34,109 nt of DNA from a virus (taxonomy: Duplodnaviria; Heunggongvirae; Uroviricota; Caudoviricetes), in IMG/VR virus record IMGVR_UViG_2913167280_000005, positions 1 through 34,109 of that record. One strand, 5' to 3'. The translations under genes and the position numbers were made by a program. The notes under the pieces were generated by a model that saw only the letters and a program-made list of their open reading frames with translations, was not told the DNA's origin and did no database searches. Below are positions 1 through 28,934 of the stretch, in pieces; within the stretch, counting starts at the first letter, position 1; each line of letters opens with the position of its first letter.

Positions 1-285
1 ATGGGCACACCACGATTTACCCCAGAGTTTAAGGAGGAAGCTGTCCGTCAGGTTACTGAACGGGGCTATTCCGTTGCCGATGTTTCTGAACGCCTCGGCG
101 TATCGGCTCACAGCCTTTATAAGTGGGTCCGGTCAGTCAGACCGGATAACAGCGAGCATCAGGCGCAGGATTTACTGGATGCGCGGACGGAGATTCTCAG
201 GCTTAAAGCGCAGCTTAAACGTACTGAGGAAGAACGGGATATTCTGAAAAAGGCAGCGCGGTACTTTGCAAGGGAGCCCGACTGA
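1..285 (+). CDS. IS3-family transposase OrfA (HTH DNA-binding part)
   Basis: 94-aa ORF starting at window position 1; motif FTPEFKEEAVRQV and a leucine-zipper-like C-terminus as in IS3-family OrfA (family knowledge). The true start may be at or upstream of position 1. Confidence 0.85.
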   Translation: MGTPRFTPEFKEEAVRQVTERGYSVADVSERLGVSAHSLYKWVRSVRPDNSEHQAQDLLDARTEILRLKAQLKRTEEERDILKKAARYFAREPD

Positions 286-332
286 AGTACCGCTTCATCA
301 ACGATCACCGTGAAATCTGGTCGATCGTAACA

Positions 333-1136
333 ATGTGTCGGGTTCTGAAGGTCGCCCGTGCGGGATTTTACGTCTGGCTTCATCGCCCTGTTTCTGCCGG
401 AGAAAAGGATAATCAGCGGTTGCTGGAGCTCATCCGCGATGCTTATGCACTGAGCGGCGGAGTCTACGGTTATCGCAGGGTTCACGGCGATCTTCGTGAA
501 ATCGGTGAAGTATGCAGCAGAAACCGAGTTGCCAGAATCATGAAGCGGAACAGGATACAGGCCGTACATGGCTATAAGGTCCCGCGTGGCGTCAGGGGAA
601 GGCCGTCACTGATAGCTCCTAATCGCGTACAGCGGGAATTTACGGTGGTAAAACCCAACCAGGTGTGGGTAACTGATATTACCTACATCCGCACCTGGCA
701 GGGTTGGCTGTATCTGGCGGTGGTTATCGATCTTTTTGCCCGTAATGTGGTGGGCTGGTCGATGAAACCAACGCTGTCGCGCGAGCTGGCACTGGATGCG
801 CTGCTGATGGCAGTCTGGCGGCGTAAGCCTGCAGAAAACGTCATAGTGCACAGCGATCAGGGCAGTCAGTATGGCAGTGATGACTGGCAGCGGTTCTGCA
901 GGGCCAACAATCTGGCGCCGAGCATGAGCCGTCGTGGCAACTGCTGGGATAATGCGGTGGCAGAATCGTTCTTCAGTTCACTGAAAAAAGAGCGCATCAG
1001 AAAGCGGATATATAAAACCCGGGACATGGCCCGGGCGGATATCTTCGATTACATTGAAGTGTTCTACAACCGGACCCGACGCCACAGTCATCTGGGTGGC
1101 GTCAGCCCGGAGGCCTTCGAAAAGGCCTCACCGTGA
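333..1136 (+). CDS. IS3-family transposase OrfB (DDE catalytic domain), likely made as an OrfAB fusion by -1 frameshift near 247-252
   Basis: 267-aa ORF with rve-type integrase-core motifs (VWVTDITYI, LYLAVVIDLFARNVVGW, GNCWDNAVAESFF); the frame is open upstream to the slippery site. Confidence 0.85.
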   Translation: MCRVLKVARAGFYVWLHRPVSAGEKDNQRLLELIRDAYALSGGVYGYRRVHGDLREIGEVCSRNRVARIMKRNRIQAVHGYKVPRGVRGRPSLIAPNRVQREFTVVKPNQVWVTDITYIRTWQGWLYLAVVIDLFARNVVGWSMKPTLSRELALDALLMAVWRRKPAENVIVHSDQGSQYGSDDWQRFCRANNLAPSMSRRGNCWDNAVAESFFSSLKKERIRKRIYKTRDMARADIFDYIEVFYNRTRRHSHLGGVSPEAFEKASP

Positions 1137-1330
1137 GGACAGAAACTGTCTACCGGAATGTGGTCACTCCATACCTTGATCATCAAAAGCTGGTATTTTA
1201 TTAGCTCGTTCAGCAGAAGACGGTAACTGATTAATTTGCTCAGGAACCCGTAATGTACGACCTAAGTTAGTGCTGGCAGTAGAGTCAACATAGTTCTTTG
1301 TGGCTGCATCCTGCGGCTGAGATGGGTCTT

Positions 1331-1765
1331 TTAAATTACGGATGTAATTATTAGTGCATCATAATAATTTGAGATAAAGGAAGGCTTACGAAGGGCTAGC
1401 CGAAGGAAACCGAAGCATTGCTGTATCAGCATTGTCAACTTATCGAAAGCATCCTCGTGAACCTCGGCGAAAAACTTCCCCTGATTACGGAGATCAATCT
1501 CCTGGGTAACCGGCAGGTCGCGAGAGATCGAAATCTGCCAGGCAGTAGTGAGTGGCGTAGCCAGAACTACATTGCCGCCGGAATATGACCCGGCACCTTG
1601 CACTGTGTAATCAGTGTCAAGAATCAGCGTGGTTAGGTTCTCGTCAAGATCCACAACCTGTACAACCAGGTCGGCTTTCTGGAAGATTCGGAAGGTGTAT
1701 GGGAATGAAGTCGTGACTCCGTTCCCGTTATATTCATTGTGGTCGACTTCGGTAGAGACCGTCAT
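1331..1765 (-). pseudogene. tail fibre/tailspike gene, N-terminal particle-binding fragment only (truncated)
   Basis: Starts MTVSTEVDHNEYNGNGVTTSFPYTFRIF, recalled as the conserved N-terminus of enterobacterial phage tail fibre/tailspike proteins; ATG at 1765 with GGAGA 7 nt upstream (track ORF begins at an upstream GTG at 1804). Only 144 codons, with no distal receptor-binding or catalytic domain, and it ends about 200 bp from the IS. Confidence 0.55.
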
Positions 1766-1865
1766 GTCTTTTCTCCAGATGTTCAGCGCCCGGCGCGCAT
1801 ACACATCTCCATTCTATTACCCATAAATCCTTATATGAATCGAATGAATAACAATCAGTTGTTTT

Positions 1866-1882
1866 ATTACCCTTTGGGTAAT
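1866..1882. promoter_or_regulatory. operator-like dyad ATTACCCTTTGGGTAAT (site G)
   Basis: Perfect 17-bp dyad read directly; lies in the intergenic region between the tail fibre start and the plus-strand 86-aa ORF. Confidence 0.35.
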
Positions 1883-1958
1883 TTGCACAACGTGCTGGAT
1901 AGGCTGCGAAACTTCTGATATATGTATATATATACAGTGCTCGCATGGAGAACACGAG

Positions 1959-2219
1959 ATGCAACGGCAGTATCATCACCCTCTGGAAGATGGATTCGCA
2001 GAACGCATACACACGCCGGGAGGCGTAAGATCCCTGATTGAAGAATCGCACCTGATGGACTTGCTGAGAGAGTTGCAAAAAGACGGGTACGACGTTAGCG
2101 GGGCAACGGCGGAACTTACCGCGCTTGTTAACTACGTCACAAGCTCACAAATTTCTATGAAAGATTTGCAGACACATCTGGACTACTGCGCCATGCAGCT
2201 ACAGCAGCAACTTAGATAG
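1959..2219 (+). CDS. hypothetical 86-aa protein encoded antisense to the late operon (moron-like)
   Basis: ORF with GGAGA 7 nt upstream of its ATG, preceded by an AT-rich tract (TATATGTATATATATACA) and followed by a GC hairpin at 2231-2246. No recognisable domain. Confidence 0.35.
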   Translation: MQRQYHHPLEDGFAERIHTPGGVRSLIEESHLMDLLRELQKDGYDVSGATAELTALVNYVTSSQISMKDLQTHLDYCAMQLQQQLR

Positions 2220-2230
2220 TAAGAATGGAA

Positions 2231-2250
2231 GGCCGCAGAAGCGGCCTTTG
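2231..2250. terminator. GC-rich hairpin (GGCCGC-AGAA-GCGGCC) with short T tract; possible bidirectional terminator
   Basis: Stem-loop read directly; followed by TTTG on the plus strand and by TTCCATTCTT on the minus strand. The U tracts are weak. Confidence 0.35.
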
Positions 2251-2261
2251 TGACATGTCAC
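2250..2261. repeat. 12-bp palindrome GTGACATGTCAC, copy 1 of 3
   Basis: Exact palindrome overlapping the stop codon of the 64-aa membrane-protein gene; the same motif recurs at 20545 and 22897. Confidence 0.45.
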
Positions 2262-2452
2262 AGAAGAGGAAGTTTGAACACGATCGCCGCCAGCACCACA
2301 AACGTTAGGAAGTAGACAGCTTTTGACGATGTTTCTCCTAGCAAGCCCTTATCAATAGCAAAGATTATCGCCCACAAATATGCGGTTCCGCAGGCAACAA
2401 CCACAGCAAACCAGAAGATAATCAGACCTAGCTTCAGTAAAATATCCATCAT
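2258..2452 (-). CDS. small membrane protein (64 aa, 2-3 predicted TM helices); virion/ejection-associated or holin-like
   Basis: Strongly hydrophobic sequence (LGLIIFWFAVVVACGTAYLWAIIFAI, AVYFLTFVVLAAIVF); start overlaps the stop of the upstream gene. Confidence 0.5.
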   Translation of the reverse strand: MMDILLKLGLIIFWFAVVVACGTAYLWAIIFAIDKGLLGETSSKAVYFLTFVVLAAIVFKLPLL

Positions 2453-5205
2453 TGCCCTACCGCCTTACCTAAATCCGGCGCACGTCTTGGCGCTGTATCA
2501 CCAGGCTCCCACCAACTGGTGGTGTTGAACTCCCGCTGGGCCCGGTCTCTCACCCTATCGTTGTAGCCAGGGTTTGCCATCTCCTGAAGCTGTTGCAGGA
2601 TCAGATGATTGGTCACCGCTTTAGCATACCAGAGGTTGGCGAACGGGGTGATCATGCGCGCCGTCTTCAGCGCATCGGCGCCGAATGACGTCTCTTCACC
2701 TTGTAGCGCCTTCTGTGGGTTGGTGATGAGGAGTTTAGTCAACTGTTCAGCGAAGCTCAGTACAGGGCCGCCCAGAGTGGCCGCAATACTGGAGCCGTAC
2801 TGCGTGTGGTCCTGGAACAGGAAATCGCCGTAGATGCCGAATGAACCACCTTTAAGCAGCGGCTGAATCCACGTCGTAGGCTTCGTCATATCAAGCGGGT
2901 CATTACCAGTAAGCAACGAGTTCATCTGGTTGGCAAACATGCCTGCCAGCGTTGTTCCAGCAATGTATGACGCAAGGAACTTGATACCGGGCACGCGGTC
3001 AAGATCTATTGTACGGTTAACCAACTGACGGAACCCGGCAAACGACGTGGTTTTGAATAGCATGAAGCTCTTCACCAGTTGTCCGGCATCATCACGGGCA
3101 TATGTATCCAGCCCGGTCGCCGTCGTGATGGCACTGGTCATTTCTCCGTGTGTGACACCCAGCAGTTTTTGAGCCGCTTCAGCACGGGCATTACGAACCA
3201 TGCGAGCAACAGTCTGTTCTGCCTCTGCATCGAACGCCTGTTTCATCCTGGTTCGACGTTCCTGTGGGATATCACCAAGAGCCGCCAAAGCGGTTTCACT
3301 CCCGGCCCTAACCTGCGCAATTCGATCAGCCATGATTGCGTGTATCGCTTCATCAGGTACGGCGTAAATCGCGTCCGGTGTCATTCCCATGTGGCCTGCT
3401 GTGGTCATTGGCCTGAGTTCTGCTGCCGCCATGATAGCCCAGTCCTCATTGCTCCAGCCTTTGCTGGCAAGAATGGTCTTGTCTGACCCCTTCACCTCAT
3501 CCAGCGTTTTAAAAGTGCGTGTCAGTTCGCCGATGTTCTTGTACATCAGCAGACCGAACGAAGCTTTGTTGGCGCGGTCCATTGCGATAAGACCGGACCA
3601 CTTCAGCGTCTTCTCAGCAAACCAGCCGGTGATGCCACGTGACAGGTCAAAGCCGCCCATCTTCGATACCACTGCGGCATGAGAATCCACCAGCAGGCCA
3701 AGCTCAGCATTAGCTCGCTTTGCGTCACCGCTGAACAGGTTTTTGATGGTGTTAGCAGAGAGACGCATACCGCCTCGCGAGAAGCCAAGAGCCTGAGCGT
3801 TGGCACGCATGATGGCCTGGTCACTGGTCGCCGTCAGAACGCTGGTACCGAGCATGGCGCTGGTCATCAGGTTACGCAGACCGCCGACGGCTGACGTGAA
3901 CACGCTTGATTCCTGCACGCCATTCAAACCGGCCATTGAGTTAAACATGCGCTCAACCATCGTTTTCTCGCTGTTCATCTTACCGACGTCTTTACCACCG
4001 GTGACTGCACGCTGATAAATCCTGTCGTTAATCAGCTTGAAGTTATTCGCCGCGTCTGGGCCAAAGGCCTTTACAGTGCCCAGGTCTCGAGACGATGACT
4101 GAAGGTGTGACATCATCACGCCGACAACCGGCTGTTCGGTGTAGCGTTCCATGTACGCGAAGTGCGACTGTGCATCCTTGAACGCCATCACCCTGCTCTG
4201 CGAACCACGATTTTTAATGCCACCTGTTCCCATGAATGCGCCGGGGTCCAACTTGTTCGCACCGTCTGTCGCCTTGGTTTCGTAAATGGCCTCCAGCGCC
4301 TGGCGGTACTCGATGTCATTCATCGGTGAGCCGTCGAGATTCACATACTGCGAGCGGTCTTGCGTGTTGTACACGTCGTCGACCCAGGCCTGTTTAGCAA
4401 ACTCAATCGGCGGCTGCCGTCCTGATAATCGAGCCTTGGCCTGCTCCGCTGCAGAAAGGCTGGCAAGCCATTCATCGCGGCCTGAATTACGGATAAGGTC
4501 AGCATCGTCGACATACGGCAGATTCCAGTTATCACGCTGCCCGATATCAAACCCGGCGTCGTTCATCTCCTGACGAGCCCGGCTGGTCACATCACCCCAG
4601 ACCTGAGCTATTTTCTTCGCCTGTGGGTTGCCCGTGTCTTCACCGTAAATCTCTTTGAGGATCTGCAACTGCCCGGACTTCGCCACGCGCTGATCGAACA
4701 GGCTGCGGAAGCGTTGCTCGCCGAGTGCCTTACTCTGCTCGAAAAACTTCTGCACTTCTGGCCCGGCCTTCAGTAGTTCGGCGCTTAGTTGGCGAGACCA
4801 GTCCTGATATGCGCCGGTGGCGAGTTCTTCCGCCGAGGTAACAGGAATATCAGTTCTGTCTGTTGTACGACGGCCGGAGAAAATAAGTTGCTGGAGGTTG
4901 GCTGGGGTTTGCTGCTCTGGCGGGATGGCGGCATCCAGCGTATCGGTGACTTTCGATATGGCAATCGCATTTTGCGCAAGGCGCTGGCGCTTCTTATACA
5001 CGTCATGCACCACGCGCTGGCGAACCAACTCGGCGGCATCCATATATGTCTGAGCGTCGGGGATACCAGTTTTGCCTTCTCGTGCATTGTTGCGGCTGAC
5101 CTGACGGACGGCTTCCTTGATGCGGTCCTCAATATTTTTCAACTCATCGGCCTTTGGCTTGCGCCCAAGCGTCTGCGCAATGGCTTCTACACATGCCTGT
5201 TTCAT
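2449..5205 (-). CDS. large internal virion/ejection protein (about 918 aa)
   Basis: Long ORF in the structural operon; ATG at 5205 overlaps the upstream stop (TAATG) with GAGGAA upstream (track start is a GTG at 5226). Function is from size and position in a T7-like gene order. Confidence 0.6.
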   Translation of the reverse strand: MKQACVEAIAQTLGRKPKADELKNIEDRIKEAVRQVSRNNAREGKTGIPDAQTYMDAAELVRQRVVHDVYKKRQRLAQNAIAISKVTDTLDAAIPPEQQTPANLQQLIFSGRRTTDRTDIPVTSAEELATGAYQDWSRQLSAELLKAGPEVQKFFEQSKALGEQRFRSLFDQRVAKSGQLQILKEIYGEDTGNPQAKKIAQVWGDVTSRARQEMNDAGFDIGQRDNWNLPYVDDADLIRNSGRDEWLASLSAAEQAKARLSGRQPPIEFAKQAWVDDVYNTQDRSQYVNLDGSPMNDIEYRQALEAIYETKATDGANKLDPGAFMGTGGIKNRGSQSRVMAFKDAQSHFAYMERYTEQPVVGVMMSHLQSSSRDLGTVKAFGPDAANNFKLINDRIYQRAVTGGKDVGKMNSEKTMVERMFNSMAGLNGVQESSVFTSAVGGLRNLMTSAMLGTSVLTATSDQAIMRANAQALGFSRGGMRLSANTIKNLFSGDAKRANAELGLLVDSHAAVVSKMGGFDLSRGITGWFAEKTLKWSGLIAMDRANKASFGLLMYKNIGELTRTFKTLDEVKGSDKTILASKGWSNEDWAIMAAAELRPMTTAGHMGMTPDAIYAVPDEAIHAIMADRIAQVRAGSETALAALGDIPQERRTRMKQAFDAEAEQTVARMVRNARAEAAQKLLGVTHGEMTSAITTATGLDTYARDDAGQLVKSFMLFKTTSFAGFRQLVNRTIDLDRVPGIKFLASYIAGTTLAGMFANQMNSLLTGNDPLDMTKPTTWIQPLLKGGSFGIYGDFLFQDHTQYGSSIAATLGGPVLSFAEQLTKLLITNPQKALQGEETSFGADALKTARMITPFANLWYAKAVTNHLILQQLQEMANPGYNDRVRDRAQREFNTTSWWEPGDTAPRRAPDLGKAVGQ

Positions 5206-7142
5206 TATGGATTCCTCAGGAAGCACGCCGCCGCAACGGAGTAAACTTTCGATTTTGCTTTTGCAGTCTGGATCTGCTCGTCAAAGTCAGCCAGAACATC
5301 GGATAACTTCATCTGCTGCCCGGTGTCAGGATGCGTTACGGTCAGATCAGGATTAGCTGTCGCCATGTCGCGCGCTGCCATCAATTCATAGTTGTTGTCA
5401 GAAATGGCCTGTCCACTGTCCGGATCAACGCTTACCTGTCCGGCATCTTCATCAACACGAGAAAATGCGCTTTCGCTGCGTGGAGCCTGCGCCTCCATGA
5501 CGGCATCACGCGGCGTTTCATAGTGAACGCCATTCTCCTGGAAAACCTGCTCCATTGCATGGTACTGATCGTTGGCTGACTCCAGCATGCCAGGACGCGC
5601 CGGGCCATCCAGCCCACGCGCCTGCATAACGATGTTAACCGGCTGGCCTTCTGACAACTGACGGGCTGCCTCATCCATGGCGGCCACATGGCTGTTAATA
5701 CTCTCGTTTGTACCATGCAGTACTGGTGCAGATTCGATGTCGTAATACAACCCCTCGTTCAGCGTGTGTGCCGCGTCAATGTCGCTGGGTTTGATTGGTG
5801 TTTCCGGAACCAGGCCGCGCATACTCTCAGGAATGATCCCCTGTTCCATACGTGATAAGTCGGCTTTTGCCTCGTAGAACTGGCCGCCTGGCTCATGCGG
5901 AGCCAGGGTGTCTCTGGCGTTTTGCAGACGGTCTCGCGCAACAGTCAGCTGATTGCTGATATCGATTAATTTCTCACGATTGGCTTCGTAGTAGCGCTTG
6001 TTGGCACCCGCTGAGCCGGTCGGCTGAGCATCACGAATTGCCTTTTCCTCGGCCTCCAGTCGCGCCACAGTTCGCTCACCATTGGCAATATCTGATTGCC
6101 ACACTTTCCTGTCACCGCGTGACATCAGTTTCCCGGCGCTGTCCTGTAGTTCTGCCATCCTGGAATCGAATGTTGCTGGTGGCTGCACTGCATCTGTAGG
6201 CGTTCCGATCTCAACAGTTGCTTGCTGCGTAGCATCGACAGGAGCAGCATCAGGTGCAACAATTCCATCAGGTGCGCTCTGCACCTCAGCCGCCGGGATA
6301 GGCGCTTCCACATCGACAGGGTTTGCTGTATCAGTGGCAACCGTGTCGGCACCATCAGCACCGCGCGCAGAAAGATGGTGAGCGCCACCGAACGCGCCGC
6401 CCAGTACCGCATCAATCATCACAGCCTGTCCATCCCATACGCGGTACTGCTTCGCCATATCGGAATAGCCTTTTTCTTCCAGCGTTTCTCCGACGGAAAA
6501 ACGGTTTATACCGCCGAATCCGACGTTGATCCCCACGCCTGAAGCGATACGCGTCAGCAGTGTTTTCCCAAGCGCGGCAGGAAGCGCCATACCCGCAGCG
6601 TTGAAGGTACTTTGCTGCGCTGCGAGATTACGCGCCGTGGACTCATCCACTCCCTTAGCTCTGAAATCCTGATAAGACTGCTCATAAGTAGAGCCGAATG
6701 CCGTTGACGCACCAATAACCGGGCCGCCAGCGATCGTTGCACCAATTGCAGGAACGAACTGGCCCAGACCATTTAACACTTCGGCGGCAGTTCCCTGGCT
6801 TGCCGGGTCTGGTTTGACGTATGCACGCGCACTCTTCAGCGAGTCACTCAGGCTGTCGTAGCTTTCATTGAGCTGCTTGTCAGCATCAGGGAACATCACG
6901 CGGAACATATTCACCGTCGGGGCTACAGCATCAGCCAGAGCAGGATCGCTGATCAGCCGCTTACTGAATCCCACAGCCGACTGCGCCAGCCCCGTAGCGC
7001 CCTCCGCAATGCCGCGCGGCAATGCAGACGCAGATCCCTGAAAGAATGTCGGGTCGTAGTCTTCTGGCCTGGCTGGGTTGGCCTGTGTCTTGTCATCAGT
7101 CCATGCCTGGCCTTCTGGTGCCAGCGAAAATACATCTGCCAT
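5205..7142 (-). CDS. internal virion/ejection protein (645 aa, Ala/Gly-rich segments)
   Basis: ATG at 7142 overlapping the upstream stop; composition and position typical of podovirus core proteins. Confidence 0.6.
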   Translation of the reverse strand: MADVFSLAPEGQAWTDDKTQANPARPEDYDPTFFQGSASALPRGIAEGATGLAQSAVGFSKRLISDPALADAVAPTVNMFRVMFPDADKQLNESYDSLSDSLKSARAYVKPDPASQGTAAEVLNGLGQFVPAIGATIAGGPVIGASTAFGSTYEQSYQDFRAKGVDESTARNLAAQQSTFNAAGMALPAALGKTLLTRIASGVGINVGFGGINRFSVGETLEEKGYSDMAKQYRVWDGQAVMIDAVLGGAFGGAHHLSARGADGADTVATDTANPVDVEAPIPAAEVQSAPDGIVAPDAAPVDATQQATVEIGTPTDAVQPPATFDSRMAELQDSAGKLMSRGDRKVWQSDIANGERTVARLEAEEKAIRDAQPTGSAGANKRYYEANREKLIDISNQLTVARDRLQNARDTLAPHEPGGQFYEAKADLSRMEQGIIPESMRGLVPETPIKPSDIDAAHTLNEGLYYDIESAPVLHGTNESINSHVAAMDEAARQLSEGQPVNIVMQARGLDGPARPGMLESANDQYHAMEQVFQENGVHYETPRDAVMEAQAPRSESAFSRVDEDAGQVSVDPDSGQAISDNNYELMAARDMATANPDLTVTHPDTGQQMKLSDVLADFDEQIQTAKAKSKVYSVAAACFLRNP

Positions 7143-19399: not shown

Positions 19400-20156
19400 T
19401 TGCATGATTGATTTGGTGAAGGATGTTGCTATGTGACATTCAACTCACCAGATGAGCCGAATAATTCAGGTTATCGGCTCACAACATGAGAGTGCATTCC
19501 TGACTATCCCCATACGGTAAGCCGTTAAATCCAAATGGTGGAGTGTGCTCTCAGTTGTGAATAACAACCGTTGTATGGCACATGCAGCGATAGCGGTCCG
19601 GCGGGTTCCTTGTAGGGTTCCCTTTCCTAGCCGGGTAGCCGGAATGTGCAAGCCTGGCTCGCTAACGGCCTTAGGGCGATTCACCATCGTGGCGATACGG
19701 TGTGACACCTCGGAAGAGACGAGGATGCAATGATGAGAGCATTGGTCATGGAGCGGTGGAGAATGAATCTGAGCTTCTTGGCGGTTGCAGCGGATTCTTA
19801 CATGAAAACCTGTGCTTTCTTCATTGTGGCAATGCGGCTGTGCGCACGTGACGAGGCATTTCATTCCACGCTTGAAATGAAAAGTTATCTAATAGTTTAA
19901 CGTCGTCAGCCGTAGCCGGGCTGACAGGTGGAGGCACCACCGCCACAAATCAAATCACGCCTCAGGACCGTTATACCCGTAGTACCTGTAACGATAGCTT
20001 TAACTTGGCGGTGTCAGAAACAACCATCCCGAAGTCGCTGGCACCGCCCTTTTTACACCAGAACGTCATTGCGATGGCTTTCCGTTGTAAACCCGTAATG
20101 CCAAGGAAGGCAGACTCCCATGCTTCCAGCTCGCCCACTTCGGTGGGCATTTTTTT
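19400..20156 (+). ncRNA. long untranslated leader / candidate structured RNA ending in an intrinsic terminator
   Basis: About 750 nt with no convincing ORF on either strand; stable hairpins at 19452-19480 and 19904-19924; a long GGCGGTG...CACCGCC hairpin plus CTTTTT at 20008-20055; canonical terminator at 20133-20156. Confidence 0.3.
20133..20156 (+). terminator. intrinsic terminator (GCCCAC-TTCG-GTGGGC plus 7 T) abutting the ribosome-binding site of the downstream ORF
   Basis: Perfect 6-bp GC stem with a 4-nt loop and U tract; AAGGTGA follows immediately, with the ATG at 20169. Confidence 0.7.
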
Positions 20157-20168
20157 AAGGTGAAAATT

Positions 20169-20540
20169 ATGAAAGAGATTGAAGAACTTAACCCGCCACG
20201 CGGCGAGATGACAGAATACCTAAAACAAGCTATCGGCGAAGGATATCAGCCTGAGCATGAAGATGCGGTATCTGACCTGTCAGTGATTGATGGTCTGAAT
20301 GATGGAGATCTGAATCGTGAGTTCGGTAAGTGCTGGCAGTGGTACAATATGGGCGGCGGACTCCATGAAACATTAGAGAATGGACTATCAAAATCAGATG
20401 CCGATTACCGCAGTGAACACTTATACAACATGAAATTACAATGCCTGCATGCGGCGATTATTCAGAATGGGCTATTCGATAAAACCAATGCCACCAATAT
20501 TGCGGAAGCAATCAACGCTGGATTCGATGCCATTAAGTAA
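20169..20540 (+). CDS. acidic hypothetical protein (123 aa), plus-strand accessory gene between terminase and portal
   Basis: ATG at 20169 with AAGGTGA 5 nt upstream (track start is a GTG at 20160); about 23 Asp/Glu against 11 Lys/Arg; no recognisable domain. Confidence 0.6.
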   Translation: MKEIEELNPPRGEMTEYLKQAIGEGYQPEHEDAVSDLSVIDGLNDGDLNREFGKCWQWYNMGGGLHETLENGLSKSDADYRSEHLYNMKLQCLHAAIIQNGLFDKTNATNIAEAINAGFDAIK

Positions 20541-20544
20541 CACC

Positions 20545-20556
20545 GTGACACGTCAC
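20545..20556. repeat. 12-bp palindrome GTGACACGTCAC, copy 2 of 3
   Basis: Begins 5 nt after the TAA stop of the 123-aa ORF. Confidence 0.45.
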
Positions 20557-22896: not shown

Positions 22897-22908
22897 GTGA
22901 CATGTCAC
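22897..22908. repeat. 12-bp palindrome GTGACATGTCAC, copy 3 of 3
   Basis: Directly abuts the stop codon (22910-22912) of the 56-aa gene, upstream of the late-operon terminator. Confidence 0.45.
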
Positions 22909-28193: not shown

Positions 28194-28260
28194 TTCTATT
28201 GCCTGATATTAATTTCAGATAACCAATATTCACCCATAAGGTAACAAAAAGCAAGGTTCG

Positions 28261-28346: not shown

Positions 28347-28934
28347 ATGAAAAGTATCCACGATATTCGCCGCAAGAACCTCATCGATTTAATCGAACGC
28401 GATTTTAACGGTGTGCAAACGCGCCTGGCGGAGCGCCTGGATACTCAGCCTAATCTGGTAAACCGCTGGGCTCGTGGCACTAAAATCATCGGCGACCAGT
28501 CTGCACGTAAAATTGATATGGCAGCCAACAAGCCGACAAACTGGCTCGACACAGATCATGAACTTGTTTCTGTATCGGAATTCCAGCCGGTTGGCCCGAG
28601 TGATATCGGATTGCTGGCAGCTGAGAACCTGGCGCGCTGGATGCGTGAAAGTCGCGACCTGTCTACCCAGGGTAAGCTATCACGGGCATCAGGTGTGGCG
28701 CAGTCAACGCTGAACAGAATGCTCAACAATGAAGCCAGCATCACCCTTGCCACCCTGGAAGCCATCGCTGCCCCGTTCGGTCGCCGCGGTTATGAGTTGC
28801 TCATCCATCCGAAAGACCCCGCAGGAATCAGATACGACAGAACGAAGTACGCATCGTTACCTGAAAGCGAGAAAAGTAAGATTGAAAGTTTCATTGATTT
28901 TGTGATTACTCAGCACGCAAACAACCAGCTATAA
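28347..28934 (+). CDS. prophage repressor with two HTH (XRE-type) motifs, no S24 peptidase domain
   Basis: GVQTRLAERLDTQPNLVNRWARG and LSRASGVAQSTLNRMLNNE look like HTH segments; divergent from the Cro-like gene and followed by a strong terminator. Confidence 0.7.
   Translation: MKSIHDIRRKNLIDLIERDFNGVQTRLAERLDTQPNLVNRWARGTKIIGDQSARKIDMAANKPTNWLDTDHELVSVSEFQPVGPSDIGLLAAENLARWMRESRDLSTQGKLSRASGVAQSTLNRMLNNEASITLATLEAIAAPFGRRGYELLIHPKDPAGIRYDRTKYASLPESEKSKIESFIDFVITQHANNQL

What the first reader, a model, noticed from the sequence alone, without database searches (positions are those of the whole stretch)
1883..2261. Antisense 86-aa ORF between the tail fibre and ejection-protein genes
A plus-strand ORF with good ribosome-binding site (GGAGA, 7 nt) and an unusually AT-rich upstream tract lies inside the otherwise minus-strand late operon, downstream of operator dyad G and followed by a hairpin and the GTGACATGTCAC palindrome. 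It has the same cassette-like layout as the 20169-20540 locus.
Basis: seen in the sequence. Interest (0 to 1): 0.4.

Follow-up and report, generated by a model that had tools for sequence, protein, structure and literature searches.

The report
SOS-controlled antirepressor gene of a prophage
The 86-codon gene is this prophage's copy of a known small "antirepressor", made when the host senses DNA damage and used to switch off the phage repressor, so the finding is real but ordinary.

Summary
The ORF 1959-2219 (+) is a real gene: it is intact in about 99 related loci, with dN/dS of 0.02-0.18. It is not an anonymous antisense cassette. The window is an epsilon15-like (Uetakevirus) prophage. The ORF is the orthologue of epsilon15 gp19 and of Ant of Salmonella phage SPC32H, a solved antirepressor (PDB 5D50 chain E, E=8e-41, 65/86 identical). 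Its partner Rep lies at 28347-28934 (5D50 chain A, E=9.7e-45) and has HTH hits only, with no S24 peptidase hit.

The "AT-rich tract" is an SOS (LexA) box at 1920-1939 that overlaps the putative ant promoter. "Dyad G" is a Rep operator at 1866-1882. The hairpin is the conserved late-operon terminator.

One twist: the box reads ATG-N10-CAG instead of CTG-N10-CAG. This variant is found in 17-18 of about 94 related loci, in at least three deep Ant lineages, and is conserved more strongly than synonymous sites. LexA control is therefore likely but unproven.

The palindrome GTGACATGTCAC sits at the same three junctions in this window, epsilon15 and SPC32H. Its function is unexplained.

The prophage's tailspike is a pseudogene (frameshift plus IS insertion).

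Verdict: a new member of a known kind, of low interest.

The parts
1959..2219 (+). ant: 86-aa small antirepressor, orthologue of SPC32H Ant and epsilon15 gp19
   Evidence: PDB 5D50 chain E 'Anti-repressor protein', E=8e-41 over residues 1-84 without gaps. phrog_450, 1.7e-44. 65/86 identical to SPC32H Ant, dN/dS 0.02-0.18. Syntenic with the annotated ant of SPC32H.
1947..1951 (+). ribosome-binding site GGAGA, 7 nt before the ATG
   Evidence: Read from the sequence. The motif GCATGGAGA is shared by most of the related upstream regions listed.
1920..1939 (.). SOS (LexA) box ATATGTATATATATACAGTG. The core at 1922-1937 is ATG-N10-CAG, one mismatch from CTG-N10-CAG.
   Evidence: It aligns with the canonical box TACTGTATGTTTATACAGTG of SPC32H, the box that carries the SPC32N C-to-A change. 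It is the only SOS-like site in the window: 18.9 bits, next best 10.7. The same variant occurs in 17-18 related loci.
1896..1924 (+). putative ant promoter: -35-like TGGATA (1896-1901), 17-nt spacer, extended-10 TG (1916-1917), -10-like TATATG (1919-1924). Inferred, not mapped.
   Evidence: TGCTGGATAG and TG-N-TA are 90% or more conserved across 72 distinct upstream regions. In the canonical relatives the arrangement reads TGGATA-17-TACTGT with TGn. The consensus scan did not call it.
1866..1882 (.). Rep operator ATTACCCTTTGGGTAAT, lying between the divergent ant and tailspike promoters
   Evidence: 8 exact and 4 one-mismatch copies of TTACC-N5-GGTAA in the window against 0.43 expected. The homologous site in epsilon15 is annotated 'repressor, lysogeny'. 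90% or more conserved.
1811..1839 (-). promoter-like site for the tailspike gene (TTCATA-17-TAGAAT), divergent from ant
   Evidence: The block CCTTATATGAAT...ATTCTA is conserved in relatives.
2228..2249 (.). G+C-rich hairpin (GGCCGC-AGAA-GCGGCC core). It is the terminator between the convergent late operon and ant; the U-tract is weak on both strands here.
   Evidence: -19.0 and -19.3 kcal/mol, z = -4.4 and -6.4. The homologous stem-loop is annotated as a rho-independent terminator in epsilon15. It does not meet the T-run rule of the scan.
2250..2261 (.). 12-bp palindrome GTGACATGTCAC, a conserved junction element of unknown function
   Evidence: Copies at 2250, 20545 (GTGACACGTCAC) and 22897. 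epsilon15 and SPC32H each have exactly three copies at the same three junctions. It moves to after the Bro-N gene when one is inserted behind ant.
28347..28934 (+). rep: the prophage repressor, the presumed target of Ant
   Evidence: PDB 5D50 chain A 'Repressor', E=9.7e-45 over residues 1-190. Pfam gives only HTH_3/HTH_26/HTH_31, with no S24 peptidase hit. Operators flank it at 28230, 28278, 28992 and 29054.
1173..1765 (-). tailspike pseudogene. The N-terminal head-binding domain is kept, with a frameshift near 1345, and the gene is cut by an IS3-family element that ends near 1172.
   Evidence: phrog_1640 tail protein, 7.3e-93, for residues 1-138. Homology continues to about 1173 in another reading frame. 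IS genes at 1-285 and 333-1136 carry rve and HTH_21 domains.
2258..2452 (-). gp18-like 64-aa small hydrophobic protein, last gene of the late block that converges on ant
   Evidence: phrog_29212, 1.4e-30. Syntenic with epsilon15 gp18.

Best explanation
The ORF is the ant gene of an epsilon15-like prophage. [quoted passage not shown]

Proposed mechanism:
1. In the lysogen, host LexA sits on the SOS box at 1920-1939. This box overlaps the -10 region and the expected transcription start of the ant promoter, so ant stays silent.
2. The phage repressor Rep (28347-28934) occupies its TTACC-N5-GGTAA operators across the genome. Its Pfam hits are HTH only, so it gives no sign of an autocleavage domain.
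3. DNA damage activates RecA and LexA cleaves itself.
4. ant is then transcribed rightward, against the silent late operon, and stops at the hairpin at 2228-2249.
5. Ant binds Rep and breaks up its DNA-binding tetramer, which releases the lytic promoters.

What is shown here: gene identity, synteny, the presence of the partner, the position of the box, and selective constraint on the box.

What is inferred from the SPC32H orthologue: LexA binding, the promoter assignment, and Ant-Rep binding.

In this lineage the left half of the box is ATG, not CTG. Repression is therefore probably weaker, or tuned differently, than in SPC32H.

Because the tailspike gene is broken, induction here could not yield infectious particles.
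For: - Sequence identity: full-length, ungapped match to the solved SPC32H Ant (5D50_E, E=8e-41). The orthologue is annotated 'ant, anti-repressor protein' at the same position in SPC32H and SPC32N. It also matches phrog_450, and its C-terminal part matches the anti-repressor family phrog_1760.
- Conserved architecture with epsilon15 and SPC32H: tailspike start, Rep operator, SOS box, ribosome-binding site, ant, terminator, palindrome.
- The aligned box in SPC32H is a perfect CTGTATGTTTATACAG. One of only two differences between the 4.6-kb stretches of SPC32H and SPC32N compared here is CAG to AAG in that box. This agrees with the published account that this mutation makes Ant constitutive. 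That account is my recollection of the abstract of Kim & Ryu 2013, J Virol 87:11775, which is not held in the library.
- 74 related loci have a canonical box at the same distance from the ATG, 21 nt in most of them.
- The window's box is the only SOS-like site in 34 kb. It scores inside the range of E. coli LexA boxes recalled from the literature.
- The box and 5' UTR differ at 3 of 47 positions from L018, where synonymous sites of ant are saturated (dS 1.49, 34 of 86 third positions changed).
- The Rep homologue is present, with HTH hits only and no S24 peptidase hit.
- Literature: SOS-made Ant inhibits the repressor by protein-protein contact (PMC7380047). [quoted passage not shown]
- SOS boxes with a changed outer base of a trimer can work, for example TTG in dinG (PMC8265657).
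Against: - The box is not canonical: ATG-N10-CAG.
- My position-weight matrix gives it 18.9 bits. That is about 7 bits below SPC32H's box and no better than the SPC32N box (19.8), which is reportedly derepressed. The matrix therefore cannot certify LexA binding.
- All isolated phages in the phage collection that match this stretch have the canonical box where checked. The variant is seen only in prophages and metagenomic contigs.
- The inferred -10 (TATATG) lacks the usual final T, and the consensus scan does not call the promoter.
- No expression data and no binding data are available.
- The role of the Rep operator 15 bp upstream of the putative -35 is unknown.
Confidence: 0.85

Rival explanations
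1. It is an Ant orthologue, but in this lineage it is no longer under effective LexA control. The ATG half-site together with the remodelled -10 would make ant leaky, or put it under another regulator (Rep through the adjacent operator, or an unknown factor). Ant would then act at infection, or set a high spontaneous induction rate, rather than sense SOS.
For: - The left trimer is ATG in the window and in 17-18 relatives.
- The matrix score equals that of the SPC32N box.
- A Rep operator lies just upstream.
- In relatives a second antirepressor-like gene (Bro-N with a C-terminal Ant-like domain) sits next to ant behind Rep operators, not an SOS box. Rep-controlled antirepressors therefore exist in this group.
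Against: - The rest of the box (TGTATAT..ATACAGT) is kept across deep lineages while the neighbouring spacer and synonymous sites have diverged. That is hard to explain unless a dimeric LexA-like binder still uses it.
- Outer-base trimer variants are functional in E. coli dinG.
- The operator does not overlap the putative core promoter.
Confidence: 0.1
2. It is a relic gene in a decaying prophage. It no longer serves its own phage. It is either drifting, or it is kept only because it can act in trans on the repressors of co-resident prophages.
For: - The tailspike is frameshifted and cut by an IS.
- All four contigs carrying the identical Ant end at, or contain, the same truncation.
- Antirepressor cross-talk between prophages is documented for the Gifsy phages (PMC7380047).
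Against: - The ORF, its ribosome-binding site, the box and the operator are all intact and identical in the four contigs that carry the identical protein.
- Rep and the operators are also intact.
- The decay appears recent and confined to the tailspike.
- Close relatives with the same ant region have full-length tailspikes.
Confidence: 0.04
3. It is an anonymous antisense 'moron' cassette, or a non-coding or antisense RNA that modulates late-operon read-through into the tailspike gene. This is the reading implied by the first stage.
For: - Its orientation is opposite to the late operon.
- It is bounded by a terminator and a palindrome, like the variable slot at 20169-20540.
Against: - There is strong purifying selection on the protein frame.
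- There is 76% identity to a protein whose structure and partner are solved.
- The slot content is constant across about 99 loci.
Confidence: 0.01

Closest known systems
Ant of Salmonella phage SPC32H (Uetakevirus; PDB 5D50, in complex with Rep)
   Same: - 86 aa, 65/86 identical, alignable without gaps.
- Same position and orientation between the tailspike and the last late-block genes.
- Same upstream operator, an SOS box 21 nt from the ATG, and the same ribosome-binding site, terminator and palindrome.
- A homologous Rep partner with no peptidase-domain hit is present in the same genome.
   Different: - The left half of the SOS box is ATG, with one extra base, so the -10 reads TATATG instead of TACTGT.
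- The host is an Escherichia cryptic-clade strain rather than Salmonella.
- The downstream neighbour is a gp18-like 64-aa protein rather than the SPC32H_019 protein.
- The prophage has a broken tailspike.
- Nothing has been tested experimentally here.
epsilon15 gp19 (annotated 'hypothetical protein')
   Same: - 62/86 identical.
- Identical layout, including the annotated repressor site, IHF site and rho-independent terminator.
- Three palindrome copies at the same three junctions.
   Different: epsilon15 has the canonical box TACTGTATGTTTATACAGTA.
Bro-N antirepressor-like proteins of Uetakeviruses (phrog_1760; for example the Bro-domain ORF4 of vB_EcoP_ZX5, PMC9782041)
   Same: The C-terminal 80 residues of the 228-aa Bro-N protein encoded next to ant in close relatives are 43% identical to the window's Ant (E=4e-23). 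Overexpression of the ZX5 Bro-domain protein pushes that phage towards lysis.
   Different: - They are about 230 aa, with an N-terminal Bro-N domain.
- They are preceded by Rep operators rather than an SOS box.
- No such gene is present at this locus in the window.
LexA-controlled antirepressors of other phages: Tum of coliphage 186, and the Gifsy/Fels-2 antirepressors
   Same: Same logic: a non-cleavable repressor is inactivated by a small protein whose gene is repressed by LexA (PMC7380047).
   Different: - No sequence relationship turned up in the Pfam, PHROG or PDB searches.
- They belong to different phage types.
- I recall the primary paper calling SPC32H Ant structurally distinct from these.
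immI region of phage P22 (ant, with mnt and arc)
   Same: It is an antirepressor gene lodged between the ejection-protein genes and the tailspike gene of a short-tailed temperate phage. The position is from my own knowledge of the P22 map; P22 Ant under Mnt control is stated in PMC7380047.
   Different: - P22 Ant is a large unrelated protein; there is no Pfam ANT hit here.
- It is controlled by the phage repressors Mnt and Arc, not by LexA.
- P22 remains SOS-inducible without ant.

Membership tests
SPC32H-type small antirepressor (Ant; phrog_450) | Full-length sequence homology to Ant of SPC32H (PDB 5D50 chain E), about 86 aa, single domain | tested here: met
   E=8e-41, residues 1-84 aligned to 1-84 without gaps. 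phrog_450, 1.7e-44, residues 1-86 on profile positions 3-88 of 88.
SPC32H-type small antirepressor (Ant; phrog_450) | Conserved position: divergent from the tailspike gene, convergent with the late structural block | tested here: met
   Annotated maps of epsilon15 and SPC32H. Three-way DNA alignment. Gene maps of related contigs.
SPC32H-type small antirepressor (Ant; phrog_450) | A cognate Rep-type repressor (HTH plus C-terminal tetramerisation/Ant-binding domain, no autocleavage domain) in the same genome | tested here: met
   Window 28347-28934 against 5D50_A, E=9.7e-45. The C-terminal part also matches 5D4Z_A at 3.2e-20. Pfam gives HTH families only, with no Peptidase_S24.
SPC32H-type small antirepressor (Ant; phrog_450) | A LexA-binding site overlapping the ant promoter | tested here: inconclusive
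   A box lies at the homologous position, but as ATG-N10-CAG. It is unique in the window and within the score range of functional boxes, yet no better than the derepressed SPC32N box. The promoter is inferred only.
SPC32H-type small antirepressor (Ant; phrog_450) | Ant binds Rep and dissociates its tetramer; ant is required for SOS induction | not testable with these tools
   Known for SPC32H from the literature. It needs biochemistry or genetics for this pair.
LexA (SOS) regulon operator of Enterobacteria | Canonical CTG-N10-CAG core with an AT-rich spacer | tested here: not met
   The core is ATGTATATATATACAG, which is 15 of 16. There is no perfect CTGT-N8-ACAG anywhere in the window.
LexA (SOS) regulon operator of Enterobacteria | Score within the range of experimentally known boxes and well above the genomic background | tested here: met
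   18.9 bits. The recalled E. coli sites range from 12.7 to 28.3 bits, the next best site in the window scores 10.7, and the window mean is -28.5 with sd 9.4. The matrix was built from sites recalled from memory, so it is approximate. Outer-base variants such as TTG in dinG are functional (PMC8265657).
LexA (SOS) regulon operator of Enterobacteria | Sequence constraint on the box beyond neutral expectation | tested here: met
   3 of 47 differences from L018 in the box plus 5' UTR, against 34 of 86 third-codon positions. The variant box is retained in at least three deep Ant lineages.
P22-type Ant (immI) | Homology to P22 Ant, with Mnt/Arc ribbon-helix-helix regulators adjacent | tested here: not met
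   No Pfam family at E of 0.1 or below for the 86-aa protein. The neighbouring ORFs are a tailspike fragment and a 64-aa hydrophobic protein.
Tum / Gifsy-type LexA-controlled antirepressors | Sequence homology to Tum or GfoA/GfhA | not tested
   No direct comparison was run. None appeared among the PHROG, Pfam or PDB hits.

The most novel reading that the evidence does not exclude
The ant cassette of this lineage may be wired differently from the SPC32H paradigm in two ways.

1. A long-lived half-consensus SOS operator (ATG-N10-CAG fused to a remodelled -10) may set a distinct induction threshold, or hand control to another factor.
2. The strictly conserved 12-bp palindrome GTGACATGTCAC bounds the cassette. 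It recurs at exactly the same three late-operon junctions in this window, epsilon15 and SPC32H, always next to a terminator hairpin. It may be the site of an undescribed regulator of termination or read-through in epsilon15-like phages.
Probability: 0.25. Interest if true: 0.45.

Novelty: new member of a known kind. Interest (0 to 1): 0.2.

Why it matters
It gives a function to a gene that sources label "hypothetical protein" (for example in Escherichia sp. E2593). It also explains the odd-looking AT-rich tract and the dyad as the two inputs, LexA and Rep, of a published lysis-lysogeny switch.

Three minor points could be followed up:
- A conserved non-canonical SOS-box variant could be used to study how operator strength tunes prophage induction thresholds.
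- The Ant module also occurs as the C-terminal domain of neighbouring Bro-N proteins.
- A 12-bp palindrome at three syntenic junctions has no assigned function.

None of these changes the overall picture of a known system.

Tried and rejected
- Pfam scan of the 86-aa protein: nothing significant (best hit GatB_Yqey, E=0.19). Identification had to come from PHROGs, the PDB and the phage annotations.
- Megablast of 1300-2500 against 5,426 complete E. coli genomes: no real match, only a 33-nt hit. The element is not in that set. The identical protein is recorded from Escherichia sp. E2593 and from assemblies of sequencing runs.
- Primary papers: Kim & Ryu 2013, Kim et al. 2016 and Kropinski et al. 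2007 are not held. Their content is used only through secondary papers or marked as recalled. The SPC32H/SPC32N box difference was checked directly on the sequences instead.
- Reading the palindrome as a second LexA box: TTGTGACATGTCACAG is one mismatch from CTGT-N8-ACAG. Rejected, because the outer bases are not conserved in epsilon15 or SPC32H while the inner 12 bp are.
- Reading the palindrome as a CRP site. Rejected, because TGTGA and TCACA are 4 bp apart, not 6.
- Reading the palindrome as an RNA hairpin: only -2.7 to -4.9 kcal/mol, no better than shuffled sequence.
- Literature search for the palindrome sequence: no paper holds it.
- An alternative LexA register using the upstream CTG (CTG-N17-CAG). 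Rejected on spacing, and because that CTG is TTG in other variant loci. It fits better as the TG of an extended -10.
- The consensus scans do not call the ant promoter or the hairpin as a terminator. Both assignments rest on conservation and on the epsilon15 annotation.
- Structure prediction was not run, because a 76%-identical solved structure exists.

Full report
**1. What is in the sequence**

The window carries a plus-strand ORF at 1959-2219 (86 aa, ATG start). GGAGA lies at 1947-1951, 7 nt upstream of the ATG.

The neighbours run on the minus strand:
- a tailspike N-terminal fragment at 1331-1765 (phrog_1640, 7.3e-93);
- a 64-aa hydrophobic ORF at 2258-2452 (phrog_29212);
- a 925-aa virion protein at 2449-5226 (phrog_684).

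The 200-nt window 1801-2000 has the lowest GC (0.395) of the first 5 kb, because of the tract gatatatgtatatatata at 1917-1934.

Three further elements are present:
- The dyad ATTACCCTTTGGGTAAT lies at 1866-1882. Its core, TTACC-N5-GGTAA, has 8 exact and 4 one-mismatch matches in the window, against 0.43 expected.
- After the stop codon comes a stable hairpin at 2228-2249 (about -19 kcal/mol on either strand, z = -4.4 and -6.4).
- The palindrome GTGACATGTCAC follows at 2250-2261.

**2. Is it a gene?**

Yes.
- A protein search found 146 relatives, nearly all 85-86 aa.
- 277 viral contigs and 6 representative genomes encode a relative.
- In all the loci inspected, about 99, the ORF is intact.
- Against eight relatives, substitutions pile up at third codon positions. 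dN/dS is 0.02-0.18 in the seven comparisons where it could be computed.

The 114-aa minus-strand ORF 1734-2078 that overlaps it is therefore the chance ORF.

**3. What is it?**

DNA similarity places the region in epsilon15-like phages (genus Uetakevirus), at about 70-76% identity.

The homologous gene is gp19, a "hypothetical protein", in epsilon15. There it is flanked by an annotated repressor-binding site, an IHF site and a rho-independent terminator. In Salmonella phages SPC32H and SPC32N it is annotated "ant, anti-repressor protein".

The protein matches the solved "Anti-repressor protein" chain of PDB 5D50 over residues 1-84 without a gap (E=8e-41). It is 65/86 identical to SPC32H Ant.

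The other chain of that crystal, the phage repressor Rep, also has a homologue in the window at 28347-28934:
- E=9.7e-45 against 5D50 chain A, and its C-terminal part matches 5D4Z chain A;
- Pfam finds only HTH domains and no S24 peptidase;
- it is flanked by four of the TTACC-N5-GGTAA operators.

According to the literature available here, SOS-induced Ant inhibits the lytic repressor by protein-protein contact (PMC7380047). [quoted passage not shown]

**4. The upstream region**

The three-way alignment shows that the AT-rich tract aligns with TACTGTATGTTTATACAGTG in SPC32H, which is a perfect LexA box (CTG-N10-CAG).

I compared 4.6-kb stretches of SPC32H and SPC32N directly. They differ at two positions. 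One turns the CAG of this box into AAG. This matches my recollection of the abstract of Kim & Ryu (2013, J Virol 87:11775): a single change in the LexA site overlapping the ant promoter makes Ant constitutive. That paper is not held in the library.

Of the related loci classified, 74 carry a canonical CTGT-N8-ACAG box, ending 21 nt before the ATG in most.

A conservation profile over 72 distinct upstream regions shows discrete footprints:
- the tailspike ribosome-binding site and start codon;
- a GC-rich palindrome, GCGCCCGGCGC, within the conserved tract at 1786-1798;
- a tailspike promoter-like pair, TTCATA-17-TAGAAT, at 1839-1811;
- the Rep operator;
- TGCTGGATAG;
- TG-N-TAC followed by the box;
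- GCATGGAGA.

From this I infer an extended -10 promoter, TGGATA-17-(TGn)TACTGT, in the canonical phages. The left half of the box would lie inside the -10. This is inference only: no transcript start is available, and the consensus scan does not call it.

**5. The twist in this window**

Here the box reads ATATGTATATATATACAGTG (1920-1939). The left trimer is ATG, and there is one extra base, so the -10 position reads TATATG. No perfect CTGT-N8-ACAG exists anywhere in the window.

I built a position-weight matrix from E. coli LexA boxes recalled from the literature, so it is approximate. The scores are:
- the window's site, 18.9 bits;
- the next best site in 34 kb, 10.7 bits;
- the recalled functional boxes, 12.7-28.3 bits;
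- SPC32H's box, 26.2 bits;
- the SPC32N mutant box, 19.8 bits.

The matrix therefore cannot decide whether LexA binds.

Four observations argue for retained function:
- The same ATGT variant, always as TG-N-TATATGTATAT..ATACAGT, occurs in 17-18 related loci. Several of these are full-length (37-43 kb) phage contigs.
- The variant loci fall into at least three deep Ant lineages.
- Against L018, the box plus 5' UTR differ at 3 of 47 positions, while synonymous sites of ant are saturated (dS 1.49).
- SOS boxes with a changed outer base of a trimer are known to work, for example TTG in dinG (PMC8265657).

One observation argues for caution. The isolated phages I could check, including Tyrion and BUCT554, have the canonical box.

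I therefore rate LexA control of this copy as likely, about two in three, and probably weaker than in SPC32H.

**6. Downstream elements**

The hairpin is the stem-loop annotated in epsilon15 as the terminator of the late block. In the window its U-tracts are weak on both strands, and it fails the T-run rule of the scan. Even so, it is the most stable local structure. It separates the convergent late operon from ant. This fits with the tailspike gene having its own conserved promoter-like site.

The palindrome GTGACATGTCAC is not specific to ant. The window has copies at 2250, 20545 (GTGACACGTCAC) and 22897. epsilon15 and SPC32H each have exactly three copies, at the same three junctions:
- after the large terminase gene;
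- after the last late-block gene, just before the terminator and ant;
- at the end of the early-right operon, just before a terminator, a Rep operator and the small terminase gene.

When a Bro-N gene is inserted behind ant, the palindrome is found after that gene instead. It is not a LexA or CRP site and not a convincing RNA hairpin. No paper in the library contains the sequence. Its function remains unexplained.

**7. Comparison with the 20169-20540 locus**

The two loci share the plus-strand orientation inside the minus-strand late region, and the palindrome just after the stop codon.

They differ as follows:
- No SOS-like site is present there.
- The nearest Rep operator is about 790 nt upstream.
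- A plus-strand terminator lies immediately before its start.
- Its product has no similarity to the epsilon15 gene in the same slot.

That slot is a variable cargo position. The ant slot always holds ant.

**8. State of the prophage**

The tailspike gene keeps its head-binding domain but is frameshifted near 1345. Homology continues in another frame to about 1173, where an IS3-family element begins; its genes are at 1-285 and 333-1136.

All contigs carrying the identical Ant show the same truncation or break off there. Close relatives with 94-99% identical Ant have full-length tailspikes, plus a Bro-N gene behind ant.

That Bro-N protein ends in an Ant-like domain: 43% identity over 80 residues, E=4e-23. 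This explains the partial hit of Ant to the anti-repressor family phrog_1760.

**9. Verdict**

The finding is real and well described, but it is a member of a known system: the LexA-Ant-Rep antirepression switch of epsilon15-like podoviruses.

I file it as a new member of a known kind. Homology, synteny and the presence of the partner are met. LexA control is inconclusive because of the ATG half-site. Ant-Rep binding is untestable here.

Interest is low (0.2). The modest residual interest lies in the conserved non-canonical SOS box and in the unexplained three-site palindrome.

Noticed in passing
window 2250-2261, 20545-20556, 22897-22908; L099 (epsilon15) 2142, 19517, 39612; L100 (SPC32H) 2145, 19634, 38629: The 12-bp palindrome GTGAC-N2-GTCAC occurs exactly three times in each of the three genomes, at the same three junctions of the late operon, and always next to a terminator-type hairpin. 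It follows the Bro-N gene when one is inserted behind ant. No function is known, and no paper in the library contains the sequence.
   Followed up: partly
window 1-1172 (IS) and 1173-1765 (tailspike remnant, minus strand): An IS3-family element (orfA at 1-285; orfB at 333-1136 with rve and HTH_21 domains) cuts the tailspike gene. The gene is also frameshifted near 1345, so only the N-terminal head-binding domain remains. The prophage cannot make a functional tailspike.
   Followed up: partly
L014 3578-4264, L015 2689-3375 and L018 3577-4266 (relatives of the window): In close relatives, a 228-229-aa Bro-N protein encoded directly behind ant carries a C-terminal domain 43% identical to Ant. It is preceded by Rep-type operators rather than an SOS box. 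These phages therefore carry two antirepressor-like genes with different inputs. The window lacks this gene.
   Followed up: partly
window 1786-1798: A GC-rich palindrome (GCGCCCGGCGC, within GCGCCCGGCGCGC) lies between the tailspike promoter-like site and the tailspike ribosome-binding site. It is 90% or more conserved across 72 distinct related upstream regions. It may be a leader hairpin or a protein site; its function is unknown.
   Followed up: no
window 20129-20156 and 20169-20540: A plus-strand terminator-like hairpin with a T-run ends only about 12 nt before the start of the plus-strand ORF 20169-20540, so it is unclear how that ORF is transcribed. The ORF has no similarity to the epsilon15 gene in the same slot, which makes this a variable cargo position.
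   Followed up: partly
window 1867, 19378, 22822, 25770, 25832, 28278, 28992, 29054 (exact); 11780, 15236, 22803, 28230 (one mismatch): The Rep operator core TTACC-N5-GGTAA is spread over the whole prophage, including in front of the small terminase gene and on both sides of rep. This matches the 'repressor' sites annotated in epsilon15. Rep seems to hold several promoters directly, late ones included.
   Followed up: partly
L066 (IMG/VR contig 643348548_000010), upstream of ant: One relative has a single-base insertion inside the SOS-box spacer (CTGTATGTTTTATACAG, that is CTG-N11-CAG). This should disrupt LexA binding, so it may be a natural derepressed variant like SPC32N.
   Followed up: no
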